Positions 1,736-36,753 of a DNA stretch of 64,000 nucleotides are shown here, one piece after another (the first letter of the stretch is position 1; the number at the start of each line of letters is the position of its first letter). Both the position numbers and the translations under genes were made by a program. The notes below the pieces were generated by a model. It worked only from the letters and a program-made list of their open reading frames with translations. It was not told the origin of the DNA and did not search any database. The stretch is taken from positions 138,857-202,856 of the forward strand of contig JAHLWS010000078.1 of the NCBI GenBank assembly GCA_019057795.1, in the 5' to 3' direction. This DNA is from Promethearchaeota archaeon. GTDB lineage: Archaea > Asgardarchaeota > Lokiarchaeia > Sigyniarchaeales > SOKP01.

Positions 1736-2365
1736 TTGGTTATAAATACCGATTTAAAGCGCTTATATAAAGTTACAGATAATCTTATTAAACAACAGTT
1801 TTATTTAAGTGGTAGCGATACAATTATCGGTAGAACGCCTGAAATATCAATTAAAATAAAAAGCTCTGGTCTAGTTGTTAAAAGATTTACGGATCTCTTT
1901 AACGATAATATTCAATTGTTTTTAGAAGGTAATTACCTAAGCTTTTTTCAACCTTTTAAAATAATTAAAGGAATTGACGATAATTACATAAGAGAAATAT
2001 ATCAAGATATACAAATCAAATTAACGGCAATGCATGGTACGGATTTTGATGTAGTAATTTTATATACAATTGTATTAAGTTCTTTAATTACAAGTATTCG
2101 AGACATACACTTTGATAAGTCAGTACAAGAAGTTATTAAAAGAGTATGGAAGAAATCAGATAAAATGAGCCAAAAACAAATTCAGATTGAATTGGATAAA
2201 TTGTATATGCATAATAACAAAAATGTTTCGATTTTATATAATATTTCCTATCTTGATGCGTTAGCAGAATCCTTTCATTTTATGAAGACTGCTCGCACAT
2301 GCAAAATCCAAAAAAGCAAATATATTAACCGTATTGTAAATTTGATACTTTTTTCAAAGAACTAA
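1736..2365 (+). CDS. hypothetical protein
   Basis: 209-aa ORF preceded by GGTGGT SD-like sequence; no recognised motif. Confidence 0.7.
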   Translation: MVINTDLKRLYKVTDNLIKQQFYLSGSDTIIGRTPEISIKIKSSGLVVKRFTDLFNDNIQLFLEGNYLSFFQPFKIIKGIDDNYIREIYQDIQIKLTAMHGTDFDVVILYTIVLSSLITSIRDIHFDKSVQEVIKRVWKKSDKMSQKQIQIELDKLYMHNNKNVSILYNISYLDALAESFHFMKTARTCKIQKSKYINRIVNLILFSKN

Positions 2366-2472: not shown

Positions 2473-4422
2473 ATGCTTATCGATAATTGTAAGGCTAAAT
2501 ATATAATTGGTGATTATTTGTCCAACTATCGTAATGAAGACTTATCCATTTTAATGAATAAATATAGTAAAAAAAAAGTATCAATTACAAAAGCGATTAA
2601 AAATTTCATAAAACCAGGAGACCGGATATTTATAGATTCAGGCTGTGCAGAACCAATAGATTTAACTAAGAAGCTAATAGAATTAGGTTTAGAACTTCCT
2701 GATGTAGAAATCCTGCACTTTCTTAGTTTAAGCGATTTAGATTATTATGAAACGGCTGGTGGACTAGAAGATTTATTTAGACATAATGCTTTTTTTATAG
2801 GAAAATCACTTCGCAAATACATTAGAGACGGTCAAGCGGATTACACTCCAATTCTCTTATCTGAAATTCCTTGGTTATTTAAACTAGGTAAAATGCATTT
2901 AGATACCGCACTCATTCAAGTAAGCCCACCAGATAGATATGGCTTTTGTAGTTACGGTATTAATGTAGATATTGTTAAACCTATAGCAGAAAGTTCCGAA
3001 TATGTAGTAGCCGAAATTAACCCCAATATGCCCCGCACATTAGGTGACTCGTTTATCCATATGGACGACATAGACGCGTTTATTATTTCTAATCACGATA
3101 TTATTGAGTTCAGTTACGGAGAACCTGATGCTGTTTCTACTAAAATAGCAAAATTTGTAGCATCCCTAATAGAAGATGAATCCACTATCCAAATGGGCAT
3201 TGGTGAAATTCCAAATGCGGTTACTATCGAATTAGCAGATAAGAAAAATTTGGGGATACACAGTGAAGTTTTTTCAGATGGTATAGTAGATCTTGTCGAA
3301 AGTGGAGTTGTTACCTGTAAAAAAAAGACGATACATAAGGATAAAATAATCTGTTCTTTTGTTATGGGCACCAAACGATTATACGACTTTGTGGACGATA
3401 ATCCAATGGTAGAATTTCATCCGTGCGATTATACAAATGATCCGTTTATAATTAGCAAGAACAAGAAGCAAATTGCGATTAACGCGGCGCTTTCTGTTGA
3501 TTTAACTGGACAAGTAAATTCGGATTCGATTGGACATCAATTTTATAGTGGAATTGGGGGACAAGTTGATTTTGTGAGGGGCGCTGCTCGATCTAAGAAT
3601 GGGAAACCAATTATGGTTCTTCCTTCTACGGCCACTATGAAAGATGGGACTTTAGTCTCTCGAATCGTTCCATTCCTTCAACCTGGTGCGGGAGTGGTAG
3701 TAACTAGAGGTGATGTACATTACATTGCAACTGAGTGGGGGTTAGCTTATCTTTATGGAAAAAGCATACGAGAAAGAGTTCTAGAAATGATTAACATCGC
3801 TCATCCGGATTTTCGAGAAGAACTATTAGAACACGCGAAAAAATGGAATTATATCTATTCTGATCAGACCTTACCAGTTTCTATTGATGGTAGAATAAGC
3901 GTTTATCCCGAAAAATACGAAACTAAATTGGAGTTAAGGAATGGAAAAACCATCAAGATTCGTCCAGTAAAACCAACTGACGAAAGAATGATCCAAGAAC
4001 TTCATTATTCCTTAGATGATAGAGATAGGTATTTTAGATTCTTTTCTCCCATGAAAGATTTTCGTCACAAGAAAATTCAACCCTTAGTTAATATCGATTA
4101 TACTACAAATATGATATTAATAGGAGAATTTAACGAAAAAGGAAAAGATAATATTATTGCGATAGGGGCATTCTTTAAAACGTTCCAAGCCTCCTTCGGA
4201 GAAATTGCGTTTGTTGTTCATAGAGATTGGAGAAATTTAGGAATTACTAAATTCTTTTTAAATTACTTAGTACAAATTGCTAAAGAACTCAATTATAGAA
4301 CATTTGGCGGTTCAATTTTATTAGAAAATAAATCTATGCTCCATGTTATTAATACATCTGGCTATACATTAAAAATAAAAAAGATTGAAGAAGGTGTTAC
4401 TGAATTTGCCTTTGATCTGTAA
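2473..4422 (+). CDS. acetyl-CoA hydrolase/transferase family protein with C-terminal GNAT domain
   Basis: Motifs IQMGIGEIP, GIHSEVFSDG, VDLTGQVNSD, SGIGGQVDFVRGA, ATEWG; C-terminal IRPVKPTD...EIAFVVHRDWRNLG GNAT; true start may be TTG at ~2518. Confidence 0.9.
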   Translation: MLIDNCKAKYIIGDYLSNYRNEDLSILMNKYSKKKVSITKAIKNFIKPGDRIFIDSGCAEPIDLTKKLIELGLELPDVEILHFLSLSDLDYYETAGGLEDLFRHNAFFIGKSLRKYIRDGQADYTPILLSEIPWLFKLGKMHLDTALIQVSPPDRYGFCSYGINVDIVKPIAESSEYVVAEINPNMPRTLGDSFIHMDDIDAFIISNHDIIEFSYGEPDAVSTKIAKFVASLIEDESTIQMGIGEIPNAVTIELADKKNLGIHSEVFSDGIVDLVESGVVTCKKKTIHKDKIICSFVMGTKRLYDFVDDNPMVEFHPCDYTNDPFIISKNKKQIAINAALSVDLTGQVNSDSIGHQFYSGIGGQVDFVRGAARSKNGKPIMVLPSTATMKDGTLVSRIVPFLQPGAGVVVTRGDVHYIATEWGLAYLYGKSIRERVLEMINIAHPDFREELLEHAKKWNYIYSDQTLPVSIDGRISVYPEKYETKLELRNGKTIKIRPVKPTDERMIQELHYSLDDRDRYFRFFSPMKDFRHKKIQPLVNIDYTTNMILIGEFNEKGKDNIIAIGAFFKTFQASFGEIAFVVHRDWRNLGITKFFLNYLVQIAKELNYRTFGGSILLENKSMLHVINTSGYTLKIKKIEEGVTEFAFDL

Positions 4423-29619: not shown

Positions 29620-29818
29620 TTCTTCTAATTCACCTTATCGGTTAATATTTTTTATTAGTTTTGTAATATTATTAATAAAGAGTTTAAACTATTATTTTAT
29701 ATTGATTGAATTAGAAGTAGCCAATTAAACTTTTAATTATTGTATTTATAACTTATTAATTTTGGATAAGAATGCTCATAACCTTAGGCTTCCATTATAC
29801 AAAACATAGGATGTTAAA

Positions 29819-30211
29819 TTAAATAACATGTAATGCTTGGTTTAAAATATCTAAATTTTTAACAAATTCTTCCTTAAATAGATGATAATACGTAAATTTT
29901 TGTTTTTTATATCCTTGTATTAATCCTGCTACTACAAGCTTTCTTAAATGATGAGATATTGTCGATTGGGACTTATCTAATATAGTTTCTAATTCGCATA
30001 CACATCTATCTTGTTCTTTTAAAGCGTTAATAATGATCAACCTTTCTTTAGACGCTAAAGCCAATGTGAATTTCTCAATCGCATCAAATGTTTTATTTTC
30101 TTCTAATTCTTTCCCAAATTTTAGCAAATTATTAAAGAAACCATTTGAGTTAGAGCATTCTTTACAAGCACATAGCATTATCTTAATTTCTGATTCGCGT
30201 TTTTCTTTCAT
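29819..30211 (-). CDS. arsR: ArsR/SmtB transcriptional repressor
   Basis: RLIII..L...DRCVCELE...SQSTISHHL..L; divergent from acr3. Confidence 0.9.
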   Translation of the reverse strand: MKEKRESEIKIMLCACKECSNSNGFFNNLLKFGKELEENKTFDAIEKFTLALASKERLIIINALKEQDRCVCELETILDKSQSTISHHLRKLVVAGLIQGYKKQKFTYYHLFKEEFVKNLDILNQALHVI

Positions 30212-30264
30212 AAACTAAATTCCTTTTTATATTTTACAAAATACTTTTATCTTATATATAAAAG

Positions 30265-30330
30265 TAAATCGATAAATATAAATCTATAACATTTTAAGGT
30301 TTCTTTACGCTCAAATCGACAACCTTAAAT
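30265..30330. promoter_or_regulatory. arsR/acr3 divergent promoter with putative ArsR operator; duplicated at 34826-34891
   Basis: Imperfect palindrome ATCGATAAATATAAATCTAT; 24-bp and 20-bp blocks recur identically 4561 bp downstream. Confidence 0.7.
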
Positions 30331-30387
30331 TTGAAGTACAACTTTTATCAAATAATAATTATTCAATCTTAAAGGAATTAAGTAAAA

Positions 30388-31474
30388 ATGAAATCAGAAG
30401 AACCAAAAGAAGAATCAAAAAAAATTAGTTATTTTGAAAAACTTCTTCCGTTATGGGTCGCATTATGTATAATAGCGGGCATTATTCTTTCTCAGCTCAT
30501 CCCTGAAATAAGCGAAGCTATTAATTCTTTACAAATAGGAGGAATTTCTATTCCCATTGGAATCTGCTTATTCCTGATGATGTATCCCGCTATGTTGAAT
30601 CTTCAATTTTCTGAGTTGAAAAAATTAGGTAAAAACCCAAAACCAATTATATTAACGCTTATATCTAATTGGGTCGTTGCTCCTTTCGTAGGGTTAGCAA
30701 TGGCAAACATTTTTTTACCTGGATATGAACAGTTAATAGTTGCAATCATTCTTCTAAGTTCAAGCCCATGTACTGCTATGGTCCTAATCTGGGGCTGGAT
30801 GGCAAGAGGGAATCAAGAACAAAATGTAATTAATACTAGTTTAAATACGATAACTATCATAATCGGTTATGTCCCTTTAGTCGCATTATTAACAGGCATT
30901 AAAAATATTCCTATAGATATCTTTCTTTTGTTGATTTCTTTGGTGTTTTTTATAGGAGTACCATTATTATTGGGTATAGTTAGTAAAAAAATTATTATTT
31001 CAATAAAAGGAGATGCTTGGTTTAACGATGTCTATAGACCAATTGTAGGAAAAGTTTCGATTGTAGCACTATTAACGACTTTAATTGTTCTTTTTTCCCT
31101 AAATGGAACTGTCTTGATAAATAATCCTGATCTGTTGCTCTTAATTTCTATACCTCTTTTAGTGGGATTTGTAATTGTTGTTAGTTTTAATATATTAATT
31201 ACAAAACTCTTTAAGTTGAGATATGAGGAAGCTGTTATTACGGTTATAATAGGGTCTTCAAGTCATTTTGAAATAGCTATTGCTACTGCGATTGCTATGT
31301 ATGGGATTGGCTCTATTGCGGCATTAGGAACTACCATGGGACTATACGATTCTTAGTTTTACTATGAACGGGTCATTCTGGGAAGTTCCTGTGATGCTAT
31401 CGATTGTATATTTGGGAGGATACTTAGGAAAACGAGGATTTTGGGAGAGTTCAAAGAGTAGGATTGAGAAATAA
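30388..31474 (+). CDS. acr3: Acr3 arsenite efflux transporter, join(30388..31345,31377..31474), 351 aa if spliced
   Basis: MMYP, NWVVAPF, SPCTAMV, SSHFEIAIA; conserved C-terminal EVPVML helix lies beyond a 31-nt insertion containing a stop. Confidence 0.9.
31346..31376 (+). other. putative bulge-helix-bulge (EndA-type) intron in acr3 mRNA
   Basis: 4-bp helix GACT(31340-43)/GGTC(31371-74), 3-nt bulges ATA and ATT, inner hairpin, outer stem AGGAACT/AGTTCCT; canonical cuts give GGA CTA TTC TGG GAA. Confidence 0.85.
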
Positions 31475-31556: not shown

Positions 31557-34115
31557 TTAGATAAATCTTATTATATCACCAAAAGTTTGCCTTAGCTTGT
31601 CGATTTGTTTCAGATCTCTCCAATTACATTTAGGAAGTTTTCTAAGACGATAATTATTCACTTTAAATAATTTCCTTACTTGTTGCTCAAACTCAGAATG
31701 TATGAATTCTACGTAGTTATCTCGTCTTATTGTATGATCTACAATAATATAAATATCAATATATCCACTATTTTTTAGATTTTGTTTAAAATTATCACTA
31801 GATTTTAAATGTTTATAATCGTTGGCATGGGATCCATTTCTAGGAGTTCTATGCCTGAATCTATCAACATATTCTTCTAGTGAAAAATGCTCGCGATCCC
31901 AATATTCCCCTGCAACGCTTAGAGTAAATACATCTTTTCCAATTTTTATATCGACATAAGCAAAAGCATCAAAATGCATGTGTCTATATCTCCGTAATGA
32001 TTTATAATCGCTAGGCAAAATATCAACAACCTGATCAAAAGGAAGAACTTCATATAATGAAGTTGGCCTTTCACCAAAATTCTTATGAAATAATCTTGAA
32101 AGTAAATAGCGCATTATCCTTTCATTCGTTATTTTACCTCCCGAACATATATCACATGATTTTAGATCTAAACTATAATCATCAGGTTTAGATTTAAATT
32201 TAAAACTTGGATGATACTTACAAGACCATAGAAAAACTTCTCTGGTTGGCTGTTTTAACTTCTCAATATGACTCAACGGGGTTTCCAGATTAAAATTAAA
32301 TTTATCACCCCGAGCAATTATTTGTTGGCTCGTTAATCTATGACTTTCATTATAACATTCAGCACACCAATTATTATAAGATCTAATACGTTCCATGCTA
32401 ATGCTAAATTCTCCATGTTTATTACAAATAAATGGGAACAGTATTTCTGAGACCTTTTGTTGTATATTGCGCGGTTTCTTTAATTCTTGATTTATTCGAG
32501 TTTTAAATTCAGTTTTAGTAAATTTAAATCTTGCATTTCTTAATTCCGCTTCTTTAACAAAATCTTGATATGAATGGGACTTTTCAATTCTTGAACATAG
32601 AGGACATTTAGCGCGATATAAATGTTTGTAAGCAACATTAAATTTTTCATGGTTGGAACATTTACAAGAAAGTTCAAATAATAAGTTTTCTATTAGAGTT
32701 CCTGTCAGCACAGTTTCTAAATATTCAAATATTTTCGTCTCCATATTAAGTCCTAAAGTATTGATTCTACTACAATAGGAATTCCATTTCTCAATTAAGC
32801 TAAAAACACGCTTTTCAGCACAAATTAATTTGTAATCAAGTATTAAATTAAAAAAAACAGTATAATTGCTTGGAAATTCTTGTTTCAGATTAAAAAACCA
32901 ATTATCTAAAACTTTTTCATCTATTAAGGAGTTAGGTCTCTTAAATTTATTAGATTTCAAAGTAGCGAAAGCTAAAGCTTCAGAACCATTAGATGTACCA
33001 TATAATTTCTCGGCAATTCTATTATCTGGTAAATCTTCTTGATATAATTTTATTTGTTTCACTAAATTTACAAGAAAATCTTTCGATATGGAACTACTAT
33101 TCTTTATATTTGGAAATTGATTCTTAATAAATTCCTTATAATGCTCTAAAGCTAAAACTTCGATTTTTTTGATTTTTCTTGGTCGATTTTCATTGGTTTG
33201 CTTCATGGAATCAAAACCTTCTTTTTCTTTTGGTTTACAATTTTCTAAATCCACAAATCTTTTTATAAGTTTAATCACATCAGATTTAGTAAATTTCGGA
33301 GTTAGCCCATTAGTATAAAATTCATGATATGCAGAAAATCTATCAAAAGCAGTTACCTTTGATTTCTTAATTTCTTTATTTTCAGGATTTAATCCGAGAA
33401 GGGATCTACACGTACCAATGTTTAGGATTTTATCATAATTACTCTTGATTTCTTTTAAAGTCAGTTCGGTTTTATTTTCTAACGATTTTATTACCTCAAT
33501 GCCCTTTATTATTTCTTTTTGCCATTCTTTCAAGAAATTTCGAAGGTTTTTAGAAAGCGGTTTAAGATTTTCATACTCAGAAAAGATTTTCGAATGAACT
33601 CGAAGGTGCTTAAGTATCCTCTTATATTGGATGGTTATTTCATCCATTCCATGTCTAATTGCCTTATTCACGAGATTTGGTTTAGAACTTTCTCCTTTTT
33701 TTAGTGCTTTAATCTGTTTTTTAGTCAATTGCTTGAGATATGTATTCGAAACCGAGTCCATGTAATATGAAACTATAGGAGCTCCCCTTCCTATTATGAT
33801 ACAATATACCCATCCCTCTATGAACGGGGTAGTTTCATGGGGGAATCTTGATTTTACACCCTCAATTAATTCTTGTGGAGGAAGTCCTGCTTTATCAAAC
33901 AAGCATGCTAACGCAGCATCCACGAAATCACCAATCCTTTCATTAACATAGACTAAAGGAATGTGATGTTTCTTACATTTAGGATACTTCCCAAAACCAA
34001 AAAATCTTAATTTAAGAGGTTTAACTCTAGTCATGAACTCACACCCAAAATTTGGACAGATTGCGACTCGATCTTCTCTCACTGTTTTTCGTGATACATT
34101 GGTGTATGCTTTCAT
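31557..34115 (-). CDS. cassette ORF B: conserved 280-aa N-domain + three zinc-ribbon repeats + PD-(D/E)XK/Vsr-like nuclease domain
   Basis: CSNH...CPLC, CNKH...CAEC, CKYH...CDIC; NERIMRYLL...HFDAF...AGEYW..EH. Confidence 0.8.
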   Translation of the reverse strand: MKAYTNVSRKTVREDRVAICPNFGCEFMTRVKPLKLRFFGFGKYPKCKKHHIPLVYVNERIGDFVDAALACLFDKAGLPPQELIEGVKSRFPHETTPFIEGWVYCIIIGRGAPIVSYYMDSVSNTYLKQLTKKQIKALKKGESSKPNLVNKAIRHGMDEITIQYKRILKHLRVHSKIFSEYENLKPLSKNLRNFLKEWQKEIIKGIEVIKSLENKTELTLKEIKSNYDKILNIGTCRSLLGLNPENKEIKKSKVTAFDRFSAYHEFYTNGLTPKFTKSDVIKLIKRFVDLENCKPKEKEGFDSMKQTNENRPRKIKKIEVLALEHYKEFIKNQFPNIKNSSSISKDFLVNLVKQIKLYQEDLPDNRIAEKLYGTSNGSEALAFATLKSNKFKRPNSLIDEKVLDNWFFNLKQEFPSNYTVFFNLILDYKLICAEKRVFSLIEKWNSYCSRINTLGLNMETKIFEYLETVLTGTLIENLLFELSCKCSNHEKFNVAYKHLYRAKCPLCSRIEKSHSYQDFVKEAELRNARFKFTKTEFKTRINQELKKPRNIQQKVSEILFPFICNKHGEFSISMERIRSYNNWCAECYNESHRLTSQQIIARGDKFNFNLETPLSHIEKLKQPTREVFLWSCKYHPSFKFKSKPDDYSLDLKSCDICSGGKITNERIMRYLLSRLFHKNFGERPTSLYEVLPFDQVVDILPSDYKSLRRYRHMHFDAFAYVDIKIGKDVFTLSVAGEYWDREHFSLEEYVDRFRHRTPRNGSHANDYKHLKSSDNFKQNLKNSGYIDIYIIVDHTIRRDNYVEFIHSEFEQQVRKLFKVNNYRLRKLPKCNWRDLKQIDKLRQTFGDIIRFI

Positions 34116-34720
34116 GAAGTCAATCTCTCCTCGAGTTGTTTTTTTGGATTTCTTATCTTTACTCTTGGTGCTTTTTCTAATAGACTCTCTAATTCTCCTT
34201 CTAAACTATGGTAGTTTATTCTAAGTTCCTCATAAAACTCGCTGAATTGTATATGTAAGCACTTTTTCACTAAACATATGTTTTTTGCCAATACAACTAC
34301 GAATTTGAGTAAGCTTAGATGATCATGAATGTTCTCATCCGAAAAATAGTGAATTAAAATGGATATTTTTTCTGTTATTTCTGAAAGTCTGATTATGGGT
34401 GTTCTATTATTGTTAAAAAATAGAGATCGTATCCCTTCCTCAAGAGTTTGAGTGCTGTTTTTTAATTTCTTAAGCATTGTTATGAATTCATGGGTTAATG
34501 TTTCTAATTCTTGCTTTCGACTGAAAAATTTATTGTTTCTATAATTTTCAGCAAGATGGGGATTGGTCCAAAATCGATATCTTATCACTTCCATCCTATA
34601 ATTAAAAAAAGTTCGGAGTTGACGTGAAAGTTCTTTTATTTTTCTTACACCCTCAATCTCATACCAATCATTAAAAATTTCTTCATAATCAGTTTCAAAA
34701 TCTTCCATATACTCTGTCAT
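34112..34720 (-). CDS. cassette ORF A
   Basis: Paralogue of 15399-16013 and 48692-49303; ATGA overlap with ORF B. Confidence 0.85.
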   Translation of the reverse strand: MTEYMEDFETDYEEIFNDWYEIEGVRKIKELSRQLRTFFNYRMEVIRYRFWTNPHLAENYRNNKFFSRKQELETLTHEFITMLKKLKNSTQTLEEGIRSLFFNNNRTPIIRLSEITEKISILIHYFSDENIHDHLSLLKFVVVLAKNICLVKKCLHIQFSEFYEELRINYHSLEGELESLLEKAPRVKIRNPKKQLEERLTS

Positions 34721-34825
34721 AATTTATTAACATCTTTTACTAACCAATTATCACAGATATATTTAAATAAAAAAGTGAGTTGAGAAAAGCGGACAATGCC
34801 TTTATATAATATCATAATTAGATAA

Positions 34826-34891
34826 TAAATCGATAAATATAAATCTATAGCATTTTAAACTGTGATGTAGGTCAAATCGACAACCTTAAAT
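34826..34891. repeat. second copy of the arsR/acr3 promoter-operator
   Basis: TAAATCGATAAATATAAATCTATA (34826-49 = 30265-88) and TCAAATCGACAACCTTAAAT (34872-91 = 30311-30). Confidence 0.9.
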
Positions 34892-34947
34892 GTGAAATAT
34901 TATACTATATATTGAACCATCATAATATGAAGAGTTAATTCAAAAAT

Positions 34948-35028
34948 TTGATTGAAGTACCTGTGATGTTATCCATAGTTTACTTAGGAAGATATCTTAA
35001 AAAGCGAGGATTTTGGAAATCCAATTGA
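34948..35028 (+). pseudogene. orphan diverged 3' end of acr3
   Basis: LIEVPVMLSIVYLGRYLKKRGFWKSN* vs exon 2 FWEVPVMLSIVYLGGYLGKRGFWES; 19/21 aa identical, 10 synonymous codon differences. Confidence 0.9.
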
Positions 35029-35049
35029 ATTTTAAATAAATTTTAAGTT

Positions 35050-36753
35050 TTGAATAAAAGAAATACTGTAATAGGTCTGAAAATAATGGCTGTAGCTTTT
35101 ATGCGTAAATTAGAGGAAGAACCAGAGACTTACGATTCGAAGTTTACTTCACTTACGAAAGGGGTGAATGTCAATGTTCATAGCTGGGTATTGGATCAAA
35201 TTCAATCAGATCAATCAATTTTAGAAATTGGGTCTGGGACGGGTTCATTAGCTTCAAAAATGGTTTCAAAAGGAAATATTGTTGTTGCAATTGATAATAA
35301 CATTCAAATGATTAATTATGCTAAGCAGAAATACTCAGATACTTTAAAAAATGGTACGCTGTTGTATCGATTAGGTTCATTTACGGATTTACCCGTTGAA
35401 AAGAGATCGTTAGATTTAATTGTCAGCACATTTCTATTATCAGAACTTCGCCCGTTAGAGCAACAAATATTTCTTAGAAACGCCTGGAAAGCGTTAAAAC
35501 CAAATGGTCGCTTGATAATAGCCGCAGAGTTTGTTCCATCAGGGTTTTGGAAGGTCAATTTTAAAATAAAAAGGTGGTGGTTCAAAAAAAAACTGCGTCG
35601 TCTTCGTTTAAAAAGTACCTTTTTAGTTAAATGGTTTTTCAATTATATTGAACCATTAGGTTTTAAGATCGGATACCAAAAGAAGTGGAAGCACGGTTCA
35701 ATTCAAGCAATTGAATTACTTAAAATTAACGATAACGGAGAAGACGAACCCGATTATTATCGTCCTAAAACAAAGAAGTTTAAAGGACTAGTTTCGCAAT
35801 TAAGAATTTATCGATGTCTTTTTACCGGACAGATAGATAGAGTTCCAATAGAACCTGGAATATATAAATCTGGTAATCCCAATCCCAACTCTCCTATTAT
35901 CGTAACGGCTAATTATGAGTATACTTATATAAAATTAATGCGTGATTTACAAAGTATTGATGCGTGGGTTTTATGTTTGGATTCTAATGGAATTAACGTA
36001 TGGTGCGCTGCTCGAGGAGATGATTTTGGCAATAAGCAATTACTAGAAGCCATTGAAGCAACAGATATTCGAGTAGTTTCAGAGAAAAAGACCTTAATTC
36101 TCCCCCAACTTTCAGCAGGAGGGGTTGCTATACCTCAATTACCAGAAAAATTTCCTTTCAAAGTAAAATACGGTCCTGTTTGGTCAAAAGATTTAAAACA
36201 ATTTTTATCCGAGCGACCAGTCCGAAAACCAGATTCTATGAAACTTGCCAAATTTACACTGTCTCATCGTATTCGGGCTGGAATCACACATACTACGTTT
36301 TTATTCCGAAAAATCTTTTTAATTCCGATAATTGCAATATTACTCTCGATTATCGCCTTGAATAACGTCACTATCTTATGGTGGCTTGGAGAATTAGTAA
36401 TATGGATCGTTCTCTCAAATGCAATAATATCAATCTTCTTTCCACTCTCTAAATTTACTCGTAAATTTATTACTAAAGCTGTATTTTTTGGATGTTTTAG
36501 CATATTTTTCATAGGGGCAATTTCTTGGATATTTCATAGTTCATATCTATATTTACTCTTGAACTTTGCTATATATTTCTGGATAACATTCTTTTCTACG
36601 ATGTCTTTTAGCGGTTATACGATGTCAACCAGTCCGAAAGACATTCAAGCAGAATATCCTGTTTTTAGAAAAATAAATCTTACTCTAATAATTTTAGTTG
36701 TAATTCTATTAGGAATAAATATAATATTTTTTATGTTAAATATAATAAATTAA
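35050..36753 (+). CDS. hgcA: class I SAM methyltransferase fused to HgcA-like corrinoid membrane protein
   Basis: ILEIGSGTG SAM motif; PGIYKSGNP..NSPIIVTANY, GINVWCAARG cap helix, LILPQLSAGGV, YGPV, C-terminal TM helices with FSGYTMSTS; likely start ATG 35086. Confidence 0.8.
   Translation: MNKRNTVIGLKIMAVAFMRKLEEEPETYDSKFTSLTKGVNVNVHSWVLDQIQSDQSILEIGSGTGSLASKMVSKGNIVVAIDNNIQMINYAKQKYSDTLKNGTLLYRLGSFTDLPVEKRSLDLIVSTFLLSELRPLEQQIFLRNAWKALKPNGRLIIAAEFVPSGFWKVNFKIKRWWFKKKLRRLRLKSTFLVKWFFNYIEPLGFKIGYQKKWKHGSIQAIELLKINDNGEDEPDYYRPKTKKFKGLVSQLRIYRCLFTGQIDRVPIEPGIYKSGNPNPNSPIIVTANYEYTYIKLMRDLQSIDAWVLCLDSNGINVWCAARGDDFGNKQLLEAIEATDIRVVSEKKTLILPQLSAGGVAIPQLPEKFPFKVKYGPVWSKDLKQFLSERPVRKPDSMKLAKFTLSHRIRAGITHTTFLFRKIFLIPIIAILLSIIALNNVTILWWLGELVIWIVLSNAIISIFFPLSKFTRKFITKAVFFGCFSIFFIGAISWIFHSSYLYLLLNFAIYFWITFFSTMSFSGYTMSTSPKDIQAEYPVFRKINLTLIILVVILLGINIIFFMLNIIN

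What the first reader, a model, noticed from the sequence alone, without database searches (positions are those of the whole stretch)
31326..31390. Canonical bulge-helix-bulge intron inside a protein-coding gene (acr3)
Seen: the acr3 frame stops at MGLYDS* just before the conserved last helix, which resumes in another frame 31 nt later. The RNA can fold as outer stem AGGAACU(31326-32)/AGUUCCU(31384-90), central 4-bp helix GACU/GGUC, two 3-nt bulges AUA(31344-46) and AUU(31375-77), and an inner hairpin CG-A-UUC-U-UAG/CUA-U-GAA-CG. Known: archaeal splicing endonuclease EndA cuts after the second nucleotide of each bulge; mRNA introns of this type are known mainly from crenarchaeal cbf5. Applying that rule removes 31346-31376 and gives GGA CTA TTC TGG GAA GTT CCT (GLFWEVP), a full 351-aa Acr3. 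Inference: a spliced mRNA in a probable Asgard archaeon that pipelines would call a pseudogene; it could couple arsenite export to splicing activity.
Basis: partly seen in the sequence, partly recalled or inferred. Interest (0 to 1): 0.92.

Follow-up and report, generated by a model that had tools for sequence, protein, structure and literature searches.

The report
Mobile tRNA-type intron splitting Asgard acr3
The only arsenite-pump gene (acr3) of this Loki-type Asgard archaeon is broken by a 31-base insert shaped like the substrate of the tRNA-splicing enzyme, so its message very probably has to be spliced; the insert moves between genomes together with a replacement gene end and a rare neighbouring gene.

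Summary
Observation confirmed. The acr3 frame (30388-31356) stops at ..TTMGLYDS*. Removing 31346-31376 gives ..TTMGLFWEVPVML.., which all 110 uninterrupted sequences among the 120 best Asgard Acr3 hits carry.

The RNA folds as a bulge-helix-bulge (BHB): a 4-bp helix between two 3-nt bulges. Such a fit at the required place is expected by chance about 8 in 10,000 times.

The same insert (31 or 34 nt) sits at the same codon in 19 independent loci. These give 13 aligned sequence variants with compensatory changes in all three helices. Exon 2 is under the same purifying selection as in uninterrupted genes. The genome has EndA alpha and beta subunits and RtcB, and no other acr3.

No RNA data could be obtained, so splicing is inferred (confidence 0.85).

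New here: the intron is laterally mobile. Intron-bearing genes are scattered over the exon-1 tree (at least 9 changes). Against a 95%-identical intronless relative, the window carries a 3.6-kb insertion: intron, a foreign exon 2, two cargo genes, and then the displaced native exon 2. A very rare 852-aa zinc-ribbon protein family lies downstream in 15 of 18 informative intron-bearing loci and in 0 of 71 intronless ones. This fits 'collaborative homing', which is untested.

This scan has already noted BHB introns in Asgard protein genes on other DNA. In print I found only cbf5.

The parts
29819..30211 (-). arsR (130 aa), divergently transcribed regulator of the locus
   Evidence: Pfam HTH_5 (ArsR family), E = 5e-17
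30388..31345 (+). acr3 exon 1 (codons 1-319 plus the first base of codon 320)
   Evidence: Pfam SBF, E = 8e-37. 77-97% identical to Asgard Acr3. It is the only acr3 in the assembly.
31326..31390 (+). Complete hBHBh' motif. Distal outer stem 31326-32/31384-90; proximal outer pairs 31337-39/31378-80; central helix 31340-43/31371-74; bulges 31344-46 and 31375-77; inner hairpin 31347-70.
   Evidence: Sequence; MFE fold; pair counts on 13 variants; chance estimate
31346..31376 (+). 31-nt BHB intron. It contains the in-frame TAG at 31354-56 and shifts the frame by +1.
   Evidence: Removal restores GLFWEVP. Intron-bearing and intronless loci differ by exactly 31 nt (34 nt in three) between conserved anchors.
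31377..31474 (+). acr3 exon 2 (last two bases of the Phe codon, 31 codons, stop). It is foreign relative to exon 1.
   Evidence: pN/pS = 0.17 among intron-bearing alleles against 0.19 in intronless ones. Only 67% identical to exon 2 of the 95%-identical exon-1 sister L088, but 91% identical to that of L006.
31557..34115 (-). 852-aa zinc-ribbon protein, convergent with acr3. Candidate free-standing nuclease.
   Evidence: No Pfam, PHROG or PADLOC hit. 16 relatives among 5.8e9 proteins. A family member lies downstream of 15 of 18 informative intron-bearing acr3 loci and 0 of 71 intronless ones. Zinc-ribbon part related to DUF4379/DUF723. Conserved D / E.W..H / D..K pattern in the C-terminal domain.
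34112..34720 (-). 202-aa partner gene of unknown function, co-transcribed with the 852-aa gene
   Evidence: ORF. Homologues sit beside the large gene in L091, L092, L218 and L229.
34809..34899 (+). Second copy of the arsR-acr3 promoter/operator region, followed by ATG AAG AGT TAA (34927-34938), a remnant of an acr3 start
   Evidence: blastn: 78% identical to the promoter region of L088, same orientation. Sequence read.
34954..35028 (+). Orphan intronless acr3 3' end (..EVPVMLSIVYLGRYLKKRGFWKSN*). This is the displaced native exon 2.
   Evidence: 96% identical to the 3' end of the empty-site relative L088, and similarity starts at GAAGTACC. 77% identical to the window's own exon 2.

Best explanation
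Positions 31346-31376 are an archaeal bulge-helix-bulge intron inside the acr3 coding sequence. Shown: the DNA insert, its fold, its conservation with compensating changes, and the selection on exon 2. Inferred: the pre-mRNA folds so that exon 1 (GACU) pairs with the 3' part of the intron (GGUC), with a 3-nt bulge on each strand. The (alpha-beta)2 splicing endonuclease then cuts after the second base of each bulge, and RtcB joins U31345 to U31377. This recreates the Phe codon UUC and a 351-aa, ten-helix Acr3 arsenite exporter. The 31-nt intron is released, probably as a circle. Unspliced RNA would give a 322-aa protein lacking the last helix. A second layer is shown by comparison, though its mechanism is inferred. 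The intron is not vertically inherited with the gene. It moves between Promethearchaeota genomes as part of a block made of about 30-40 nt of exon 1, the intron, a replacement exon 2 and a downstream gene of a very rare 852-aa family. The recipient's own exon 2 is often left behind as an orphan.
For: (1) Excision by the BHB rule gives exactly TTMGLFWEVPVML, as in all 110 uninterrupted sequences among the 120 best hits. (2) The MFE fold gives the central helix, the 5' bulge and the hairpin, and the geometry falls at the required register with chance about 8e-4. (3) There are 13 aligned sequence variants from independent assemblies. 90.6% of cells pair, against 38-54% when partners are slid. The central helix and the three proximal outer pairs are 100% paired. 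Both-sided changes occur in the outer stem (A-U to U-A in L171, through synonymous GGA>GGU and GUU>GUA), the central helix (C-G to U-A in L007, through synonymous CUA>UUA) and the inner helix (U-A/G-C). (4) Length varies in the loop only: 34 nt in L171, L226 and L227. (5) Exon 2 downstream of the frameshift has pN/pS = 0.17, the same as uninterrupted genes at 0.19. (6) The intron is 86% identical among variants, while third codon positions nearby are 50-57% identical. Synonymous sites flanking the intron are more conserved than in intronless alleles. (7) The genome encodes two EndA paralogues. By inspection one has the Tyr/His/Lys positions and one lacks the His. It also encodes RtcB. Asgard EndA is described as the broad-specificity (alpha-beta)2 type (PMC5829648). 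(8) This is the only acr3 in an assembly estimated 100% complete. (9) Other genes of this genome carry similar inserts. A geometry-only scan found a 30-nt strict BHB in nadE that restores GYFTKYGD|SGVD, and the Pfam match reads through one TAG there. The single uL11 gene is broken by two short hairpin inserts. Mobility.
Against: In five of the 13 variants the second inner-helix pair is a mismatch, so h' next to the bulge is a single C-G pair followed by an internal loop, which is a relaxed motif. Overall covariation is modest because the introns are very similar (4 pairs with both-sided change; 11 of 500 shuffles reach that). The fold z-score is only -2.3. The EndA alpha/beta assignment rests on inspection of the sequences. 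My genome-wide strict BHB scan showed only a small excess over control geometries (22 against 12-18 in the 28-31-nt bin), so it does not by itself show a large mRNA-intron system.
Confidence: 0.85

Rival explanations
1. The gene is a pseudogene or a truncated Acr3. The insert is a DNA-level scar or recombination-site hairpin that is never removed from the RNA.
For: Gene callers produce 318-338-aa truncated products. The insert lies at a recombination junction. No RNA data.
Against: Exon 2, behind a stop and a frameshift, stays open in all variants, with pN/pS = 0.17, equal to intact genes. Compensatory changes preserve an RNA-type structure that includes G-U pairs. This is the only acr3 copy in the assembly. 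The true orphan copies show what a discarded 3' end looks like.
Confidence: 0.05
2. Split gene: a 322-aa Acr3 core and a separate 36-aa last-helix peptide that starts at the ATG inside the insert (31364).
For: An ATG in frame with exon 2 lies in most variants (MNGSFWEVP / MKGSFWEVP).
Against: The ATG is absent in L138 (CUAAGAA) and L229 (CUAGGAA), and no other in-frame start replaces it. The ATG lies in the 3' strand of the inner helix, which explains its frequency. In L047 exon 1 reads through the insert without a stop. I saw no ribosome-binding motif on reading the sequence. This model does not explain the exon-intron central helix and its compensatory change.
Confidence: 0.04
3. Translational recoding: ribosomes bypass the 31 nt (as in T4 gene 60) or shift frame.
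For: A hairpin and a nearby stop codon resemble bypass signals.
Against: By inspection there are no matched take-off and landing codons that would give GLFWEVP. The codon before UUC UGG is UCA, while the take-off codon would be CUA. A +1 shift cannot skip 31 nt. The precise BHB geometry and the covariation of the outer exon-exon stem have no role in bypassing.
Confidence: 0.02
4. Second layer (how the intron spreads). The linkage with the 852-aa gene and the orphan exon reflects an ordinary island or defence hotspot behind acr3. DNA is exchanged by homologous recombination, and the intron merely hitch-hikes in the founder allele. No site-specific nuclease is involved.
For: Cargo varies: CBASS cyclases plus an HNH-SAVED effector in L003/L221, and unrelated genes in L005 and L089. 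One intron-bearing locus (L093) has only ordinary genes downstream. The 852-aa family also neighbours AAA_15/21 ATPase and HEPN genes. No nuclease homology was confirmed.
Against: Left breakpoints fall within about 40 nt of the intron in every pair examined, rather than anywhere in acr3. Orphans start within a few codons of the intron site. The 15/18 against 0/71 association is very strong. Even family members without a full acr3 nearby keep an acr3 3' fragment within 5 kb.
Confidence: 0.45

Closest known systems
cbf5 pre-mRNA intron of Crenarchaeota (Watanabe 2002; Yoshinari 2006; Yokobori 2009, PMC2738675)
   Same: A short BHB-type intron inside a protein-coding sequence. The predicted cut lies between the 2nd and 3rd bulge residues. 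The host has a hetero-oligomeric, broad-specificity splicing endonuclease. Distribution is patchy, with gains and losses.
   Different: Different gene (an accessory arsenite transporter, not an RNA-modification enzyme). Different phylum (Promethearchaeota/Asgard). Here the motif is canonical rather than mostly relaxed. Here there is clear lateral transfer with a mosaic gene, a duplicated 3' exon and a linked neighbouring gene. Splicing of cbf5 was shown by cDNA, whereas this one is inferred.
BHB intron in the 5' UTR of Haloferax volcanii HVO_1309 (PMC7714728)
   Same: An EndA substrate in an mRNA.
   Different: That intron lies in the untranslated leader and does not interrupt the reading frame. 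It was shown by circRNA-seq and in vitro cleavage.
Archaeal tRNA and rRNA BHB introns, some rRNA introns carrying homing endonuclease ORFs (reviewed in PMC2738675; Asgard tRNA introns in bioRxiv 10.64898/2026.10.13.758758)
   Same: Same motif and the same enzymes. tRNA introns are of similar size. rRNA introns are mobile at the DNA level through an endonuclease.
   Different: The host RNA here is a messenger. The intron is too small to encode anything, so any nuclease would have to be encoded outside it.
Collaborative homing: group I intron in psbA plus free-standing F-CphI in cyanophage S-PM2 (Zeng, Bonocora and Shub 2009, as described in PMC6083498)
   Same: An ORF-less intron in a conserved coding motif, next to a free-standing gene that could supply mobility. 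The intron would protect the carrier allele. The flanking exon is co-converted.
   Different: The intron is a protein-dependent BHB intron, not a ribozyme. The host is an archaeal chromosome, not a phage. The neighbouring protein is not a recognised homing-endonuclease family, and its activity is untested. The mobile block carries a spare 3' exon.

Membership tests
Archaeal BHB (EndA-spliced) intron | [quoted passage not shown] | tested here: met
   GACU/GGUC flanked by AUA and AUU. The central helix is 100% paired in 13 variants, with one compensatory change.
Archaeal BHB (EndA-spliced) intron | Flanking helices h and h' of at least 2 bp | tested here: met
   Window: the outer helix has 3 pairs next to the bulge plus a 7-bp distal stem. 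The inner helix has 2 pairs, a bulged A, then 3+3 pairs. In 5 of 13 relatives the second inner pair is mismatched, giving a relaxed form.
Archaeal BHB (EndA-spliced) intron | Cutting after the second bulge nucleotide yields the functional product | tested here: met
   It restores GLFWEVP without a gap. Chance of this register is about 8e-4.
Archaeal BHB (EndA-spliced) intron | Host encodes a splicing endonuclease and an RtcB ligase | tested here: met
   Two PF01974 genes (97.7 and 70.5 bits) and one PF01139 gene (561 bits). Alpha/beta roles are by inspection. The specificity loop was not examined.
Archaeal BHB (EndA-spliced) intron | Intron absent from mature RNA, and intron circle present | not testable with these tools
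There is no spliced-junction contig in JGI metagenomes.
cbf5 intron family (Crenarchaeota) | Located in cbf5 at the catalytic Asp codon, in Desulfurococcales or Sulfolobales | tested here: not met
   The gene is acr3 (Pfam SBF), and the relatives are Promethearchaeota. Same kind of intron, but not the same intron.
Collaborative homing (intron plus free-standing homing endonuclease) | A free-standing gene is consistently adjacent to the intron-bearing allele and absent from intronless alleles | tested here: met
   15 of 18 informative intron-bearing loci against 0 of 71 intronless loci (about 1.4 kb of downstream sequence searched).
Collaborative homing (intron plus free-standing homing endonuclease) | The adjacent protein is a site-specific DNA endonuclease whose target spans the intron insertion site | tested here: inconclusive
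   Found: zinc-ribbon repeats related to DUF4379/DUF723 and a conserved D / E.W..H / D..K pattern. Not found: any Pfam or PDB match. The structure models were poor (pLDDT 36 and 47.5).
Collaborative homing (intron plus free-standing homing endonuclease) | Gene-conversion mosaic centred on the insertion site | tested here: met
   Window against L088: 95% identity up to about 31306, then 78% in the last 27 nt of exon 1 and 67% in exon 2. The native exon 2 is displaced to 34954.
Self-splicing group I or II intron | Ribozyme core | tested here: not met
   The insert is 31 nt, and there are no Rfam matches in the window.
Programmed translational bypass (T4 gene 60 type) | Matched take-off and landing codons flanking the gap | tested here: not met
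   By inspection: CUA before the gap and UCA before UUC UGG. No pair of matching codons gives GLFW.

The most novel reading that the evidence does not exclude
A protein-dependent BHB mini-intron and a free-standing nuclease form a 'collaborative homing' pair in an Asgard chromosome. The 852-aa zinc-ribbon protein would cut intronless acr3 at the conserved GLF/WEVP codons. Repair would copy the intron, a spare exon 2 and the nuclease gene from a carrier allele, pushing the recipient's exon 2 aside as an orphan. The intron would split the target and so protect the carrier. That would be a DNA-level route by which tRNA-type introns enter protein-coding genes in the closest archaeal relatives of eukaryotes.
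Probability: 0.4. Interest if true: 0.9.

Novelty: new variant of a known kind. Interest (0 to 1): 0.8.

Why it matters
In the papers I could search, splicing of an archaeal coding sequence by the tRNA-splicing enzymes is documented for one gene only, cbf5 of Crenarchaeota. PMC7714728 (2020) still says so. This case extends it to an ordinary accessory gene in Asgard archaea, the closest archaeal relatives of eukaryotes. It comes with unusually rich comparative support: 19 independent loci, 71 intronless orthologous loci and one near-identical empty site.

It has a practical side. Automated annotation truncates such genes, so metabolic and resistance inventories of Asgard MAGs are biased.

It also gives a concrete, testable picture of how such an intron is gained: by lateral transfer of a block with a defined junction, linked to a specific rare gene. 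Intron gain in protein-coding genes before the spliceosome is a long-standing open question, and this locus offers a natural occupied-versus-empty-site pair for studying it.

Tried and rejected
- Spliced-junction pattern in JGI metagenome contigs: 0 hits.
- Intron pattern in IMG/VR viral contigs: 0 hits, so there is no sign of a viral carrier.
Five real extra variants were recovered by filtering.
- Rfam and ARAGORN on the window: nothing.
- Covariance model R1 of the intron finds only the acr3 copy in the genome, so this intron is not a dispersed repeat family.
- First genome-wide BHB-plus-ORF scan: too lenient and timed out.
- Second scan (strict geometry, both ORFs at least 60 codons): 164 hits against 157-185 for control geometries, with a small excess at 28-31 nt (22 against 12-18). 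It yielded one convincing extra intron (nadE) but cannot count introns. The strict scan did not recover the two uL11 inserts.
- 852-aa protein: no Pfam, PHROG or PADLOC hit. Profile searches against PDB sequences gave nothing. AlphaFold models were too poor for a fold search (pLDDT 36.4 from a single sequence, 47.5 with 12 sequences).
- The idea that the 852-aa gene is a generic defence-island gene unrelated to acr3 came from contexts. I dropped it after searches showed acr3 3' ends in those same loci.
Full report
**1. Observation**

The acr3 ORF runs from 30388 to 31356 and ends ..GTTMGLYDS*. Its product is an SBF/Acr3 transporter (Pfam SBF, E = 8e-37), with a divergent arsR upstream.

The segment 31326-31390 can form:
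- a distal outer stem (AGGAACU/AGUUCCU);
- three proximal outer pairs (U-G, G-U, G-C);
- a 4-bp central helix (GACU/GGUC);
- two 3-nt bulges (AUA, AUU);
- an imperfect inner hairpin.

The bulges lie 3' of the central-helix strands. This is the topology of tRNA BHB motifs, in which the 5' exon pairs with the 3' part of the intron.

The unconstrained MFE fold recovers the central helix, the 5' bulge and the hairpin (-21.9 kcal/mol, z = -2.3).

Cutting after the second base of each bulge is the rule quoted for cbf5 in PMC2738675. It removes 31346-31376 and gives a 351-aa protein reading ..GTTMGLFWEVPVMLSIVYLG...

Among the 120 best database relatives, all 110 uninterrupted ones read TMGLFWEVP at this point. 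Ten others are called as 318-338-aa products ending ..MGLYDS..MGLYYS or ..MGLYAS, which means they are cut off at the same place.

A minimal BHB of this geometry occurs at 2.6e-4 of positions in this genome. For the three excision registers that give the right product, that is about 8e-4.

**2. The insert is real and conserved**

Between the anchors ATGGGNYTN and TGGGARGTNCC:
- intronless orthologous loci (71 in the later tallies) have 23 nt;
- the window and a set of other loci have 54 nt;
- three loci have 57 nt.

Counting genomes once, there are 19 independent intron-bearing loci. They come from MAGs of three genera of one Promethearchaeota family and from metagenome contigs.

Thirteen distinct sequence variants were aligned (A1).

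Both-sided changes keep a pair in all three helices:
- Outer stem: A-U to U-A in L171, made by two synonymous codon changes (Gly GGA>GGU and Val GUU>GUA). Six sequences have G-U there.
- Central helix: C-G to U-A in L007, where a synonymous Leu CUA>UUA in the exon is matched by G>A in the intron.
- Inner helix: U-A/G-C at the second pair, and the U.U mismatch becomes A-U, U-A or G-U in four variants.

The extra 3 nt of the 34-nt form lie in the loop.

The evidence is modest in amount, because the introns are 86% identical. In five variants the second inner pair is mismatched, which gives a relaxed h'.

**3. Exon 2 is translated in the joined frame**

Behind a stop codon and a +1 shift, exon 2 stays open in every variant. 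Over its 23 conserved codons, pS = 0.62 and pN = 0.11, a ratio of 0.17. Uninterrupted genes give 0.19.

Third codon positions are 50-57% identical among intron-bearing alleles, yet the intron itself is 86% identical. Synonymous sites right next to the intron are more conserved than in intronless alleles: 63% against 43% upstream, and 81% against 58% in the first four codons downstream. This is expected if those bases must pair.

The gene is the only acr3 in an assembly estimated 100% complete.

**4. Enzymes and other introns in the genome**

- The genome has two EndA-domain genes of about 200 aa. By inspection one keeps the Tyr/His/Lys positions and the other lacks the His. This fits the (alpha-beta)2 type reported for Asgard archaea, the type linked with relaxed substrates and with cbf5 splicing (PMC5829648, PMC2738675).
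- RtcB is present.
- My geometry-only scan picked a 30-nt strict BHB in nadE (G000:C69:3647-3676, minus strand). Its removal gives GYFTKYGD|SGVDFEPIG. The Pfam NAD_synthase match reads through one TAG there.
- The single uL11 gene is visibly broken after GGPPI and after GPAVGPTGIN by two short hairpin inserts, although my strict scan did not score them.
- Genome-wide, the scan showed only a small excess over control geometries. I therefore do not claim a count.

**5. Rivals for the nature of the insert**

- Pseudogene: contradicted by the selection on exon 2 and by the gene's single-copy status.
- Separate last-helix peptide from the ATG inside the insert: contradicted by L138 and L229, which lack that ATG, and by L047, where exon 1 reads through the insert. 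The ATG simply lies in the helix strand CUAUGAA.
- Ribosomal bypass: it has no matching take-off and landing codons.
- Self-splicing introns: excluded by size and by Rfam.
- What is missing is RNA.

**6. The intron is laterally mobile and sits at a recombination junction**

*Tree.* On a maximum-likelihood tree of 849 nt of exon 1 (85 loci), the 14 intron-bearing rows need at least 9 gains or losses. These are forced by well-supported branches. Most intron-bearing genes have a close intronless sister.

*Mosaic genes.* The genes are mosaics.
- The window is 95% identical to the intronless L088 over exon 1.
- It is 78% identical over the last 27 nt of exon 1 and 67% over exon 2.
- Its exon 2 is 91% identical to that of L006, whose exon 1 is under 80% identical.
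- In the six sister pairs whose alignment is usable (of nine printed), most clearly the three against L088, the extra divergence starts within about 40 nt upstream of the intron.

*Empty site.* L088 is an empty site. It aligns with window 29773-31340 and then with 34954-36092, so about 3.6 kb are inserted in the window. The insertion contains, in order:
- the intron;
- a foreign exon 2;
- an 852-aa gene and a 202-aa gene on the other strand;
- a 78%-identical second copy of the ars promoter, followed by ATG AAG AGT TAA.

Immediately after it lies an orphan, intronless acr3 3' end. The orphan is 96% identical to L088 and only 77% identical to the window's own exon 2.

*Orphans elsewhere.* Orphan intronless 3' ends lie 1.7-3.6 kb downstream in 7 of 12 intron-bearing loci with enough flank. 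They begin at TMGLFWEVP, FWEVP, EVP or PIML. In a survey of 400 genomes of the phylum, among the listed matches such short extra copies occur only in genomes with the intron.

**7. The linked gene**

- The 852-aa protein has no Pfam, PHROG or PADLOC match.
- It has 16 relatives among 5.8e9 proteins and 18 among 1.8e9 cluster representatives.
- tblastn finds the family, full length or as C-terminal pieces, downstream of the intron-bearing acr3 in 15 of 18 informative loci, mostly convergent and directly adjacent. It finds none in the 71 intronless loci, where about 1.4 kb downstream was searched.
- The two members I first saw in 'defence-like' surroundings also have an orphan acr3 3' end within 5 kb.
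- Its middle part is related to treble-clef zinc-ribbon repeats (DUF4379/DUF723).
- The C-terminal domain keeps an Asp, an E.W..H motif and a D..K motif across distant relatives. I read this pattern as Vsr/DUF559-like, but Pfam, PDB profiles and two poor AlphaFold models could not confirm it.
- Cargo is not uniform. CBASS genes follow acr3 in L003/L221, unrelated genes follow it in L005 and L089, and ordinary genes follow it in L093.

**8. Reading of the mobility**

The pattern has five parts:
- an ORF-less intron in a highly conserved coding motif;
- an adjacent rare gene present only with the intron;
- a short co-conversion tract on one side;
- wholesale replacement up to that gene on the other side;
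- the recipient's own exon left as the right-hand homology.

This is what 'collaborative homing' predicts. That process is described for the cyanophage psbA group I intron and the free-standing F-CphI (PMC6083498). In it the intron would protect the carrier allele by splitting the nuclease's target.

Another first-reader note on this window proposed this reading (e1-5565117). My tests add the mosaic analysis, the empty site and the 15/18 against 0/71 association. The nuclease activity is unproven.

The alternative is a recombination hotspot with a hitch-hiking intron, and it remains about as likely. I put homing at 0.4.

**9. What is known and what is new**

In print I found:
- coding-sequence BHB introns only for cbf5 (PMC2738675; restated in 2020 in PMC7714728);
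- one 5'-UTR case in Haloferax (PMC7714728);
- a 2026 preprint on Asgard tRNA introns that has no occurrence of 'mRNA' and uses protein-coding genes only as neighbours for matching tRNA loci.

Four further searches for Asgard mRNA introns found nothing.

This scan has already reported BHB introns in Asgard protein genes on other DNA and elsewhere in this genome, including one report with RNA support that I did not check.

Judged against the literature, this is the same kind of intron as cbf5's, but in a new lineage and a new gene. It has a canonical motif and a new feature: lateral spread as part of a defined block linked to a specific gene.

**10. Verdict**

- The intron interpretation is supported at about 0.85 without RNA proof.
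- The mobility layer is well shown as a pattern, but its mechanism is open.

Noticed in passing
G000:C69:3647-3676 (minus strand; locus L224): A 30-nt in-frame insert containing a stop codon lies in nadE. It has strict hBHBh' geometry, and its removal restores GYFTKYGD|SGVDFEPIG. It is a second candidate mRNA intron in this genome.
   Followed up: partly
L215 about 1830-1990 (minus strand; G000:C73): The only uL11 gene is broken in its N-terminal domain by two short hairpin-containing inserts, after ..GGPPI and after ..GPAVGPTGIN. My strict BHB scan did not score them.
   Followed up: partly
L219 about 6330 and L220 about 2310 (genomes G150 and G151): A second acr3 copy in two related genomes has TAG in place of the conserved Trp codon (GLF*EVP / GLF*DVP). 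That is the codon next to the intron insertion site. Both genomes also have an intact acr3. This may be a pseudogene or a target-site change.
   Followed up: no
L221 2423-6071 (= L003 4500-6879 and beyond): A CBASS-type defence set (two oligonucleotide cyclases and an HNH-SAVED effector) sits directly behind an intron-bearing acr3. A fragment of the 852-aa family lies further on.
   Followed up: partly
window 35086-36753: The gene after the orphan exon is a fusion of a SAM-methyltransferase domain with a CdhD/corrinoid-type domain and a membrane part, inside the ars locus. It is now driven by the duplicated ars promoter copy.
   Followed up: no
L016 (record DATKTW010000069.1): A contig labelled Candidatus Nanopelagicaceae bacterium (Actinomycetota) carries an acr3 that nests deep inside the Promethearchaeota clade (80% identical). 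This is probably a mis-binned contig.
   Followed up: no
L225 about 2830-2920 (minus strand): An orphan acr3 3' end of the 'element type' (..GFWETSEVRME*) has no intron. It reads TTIGLFWEVP (Met to Ile) and lies beside a 668-aa member of the 852-aa family, with no full acr3 within 5 kb. This may be an element copy outside its target.
   Followed up: no
L226 about 6690 (plus strand): Here the orphan acr3 3' end lies on the other side of arsR and on the opposite strand from the intron-bearing acr3. This arrangement differs from the window.
   Followed up: no
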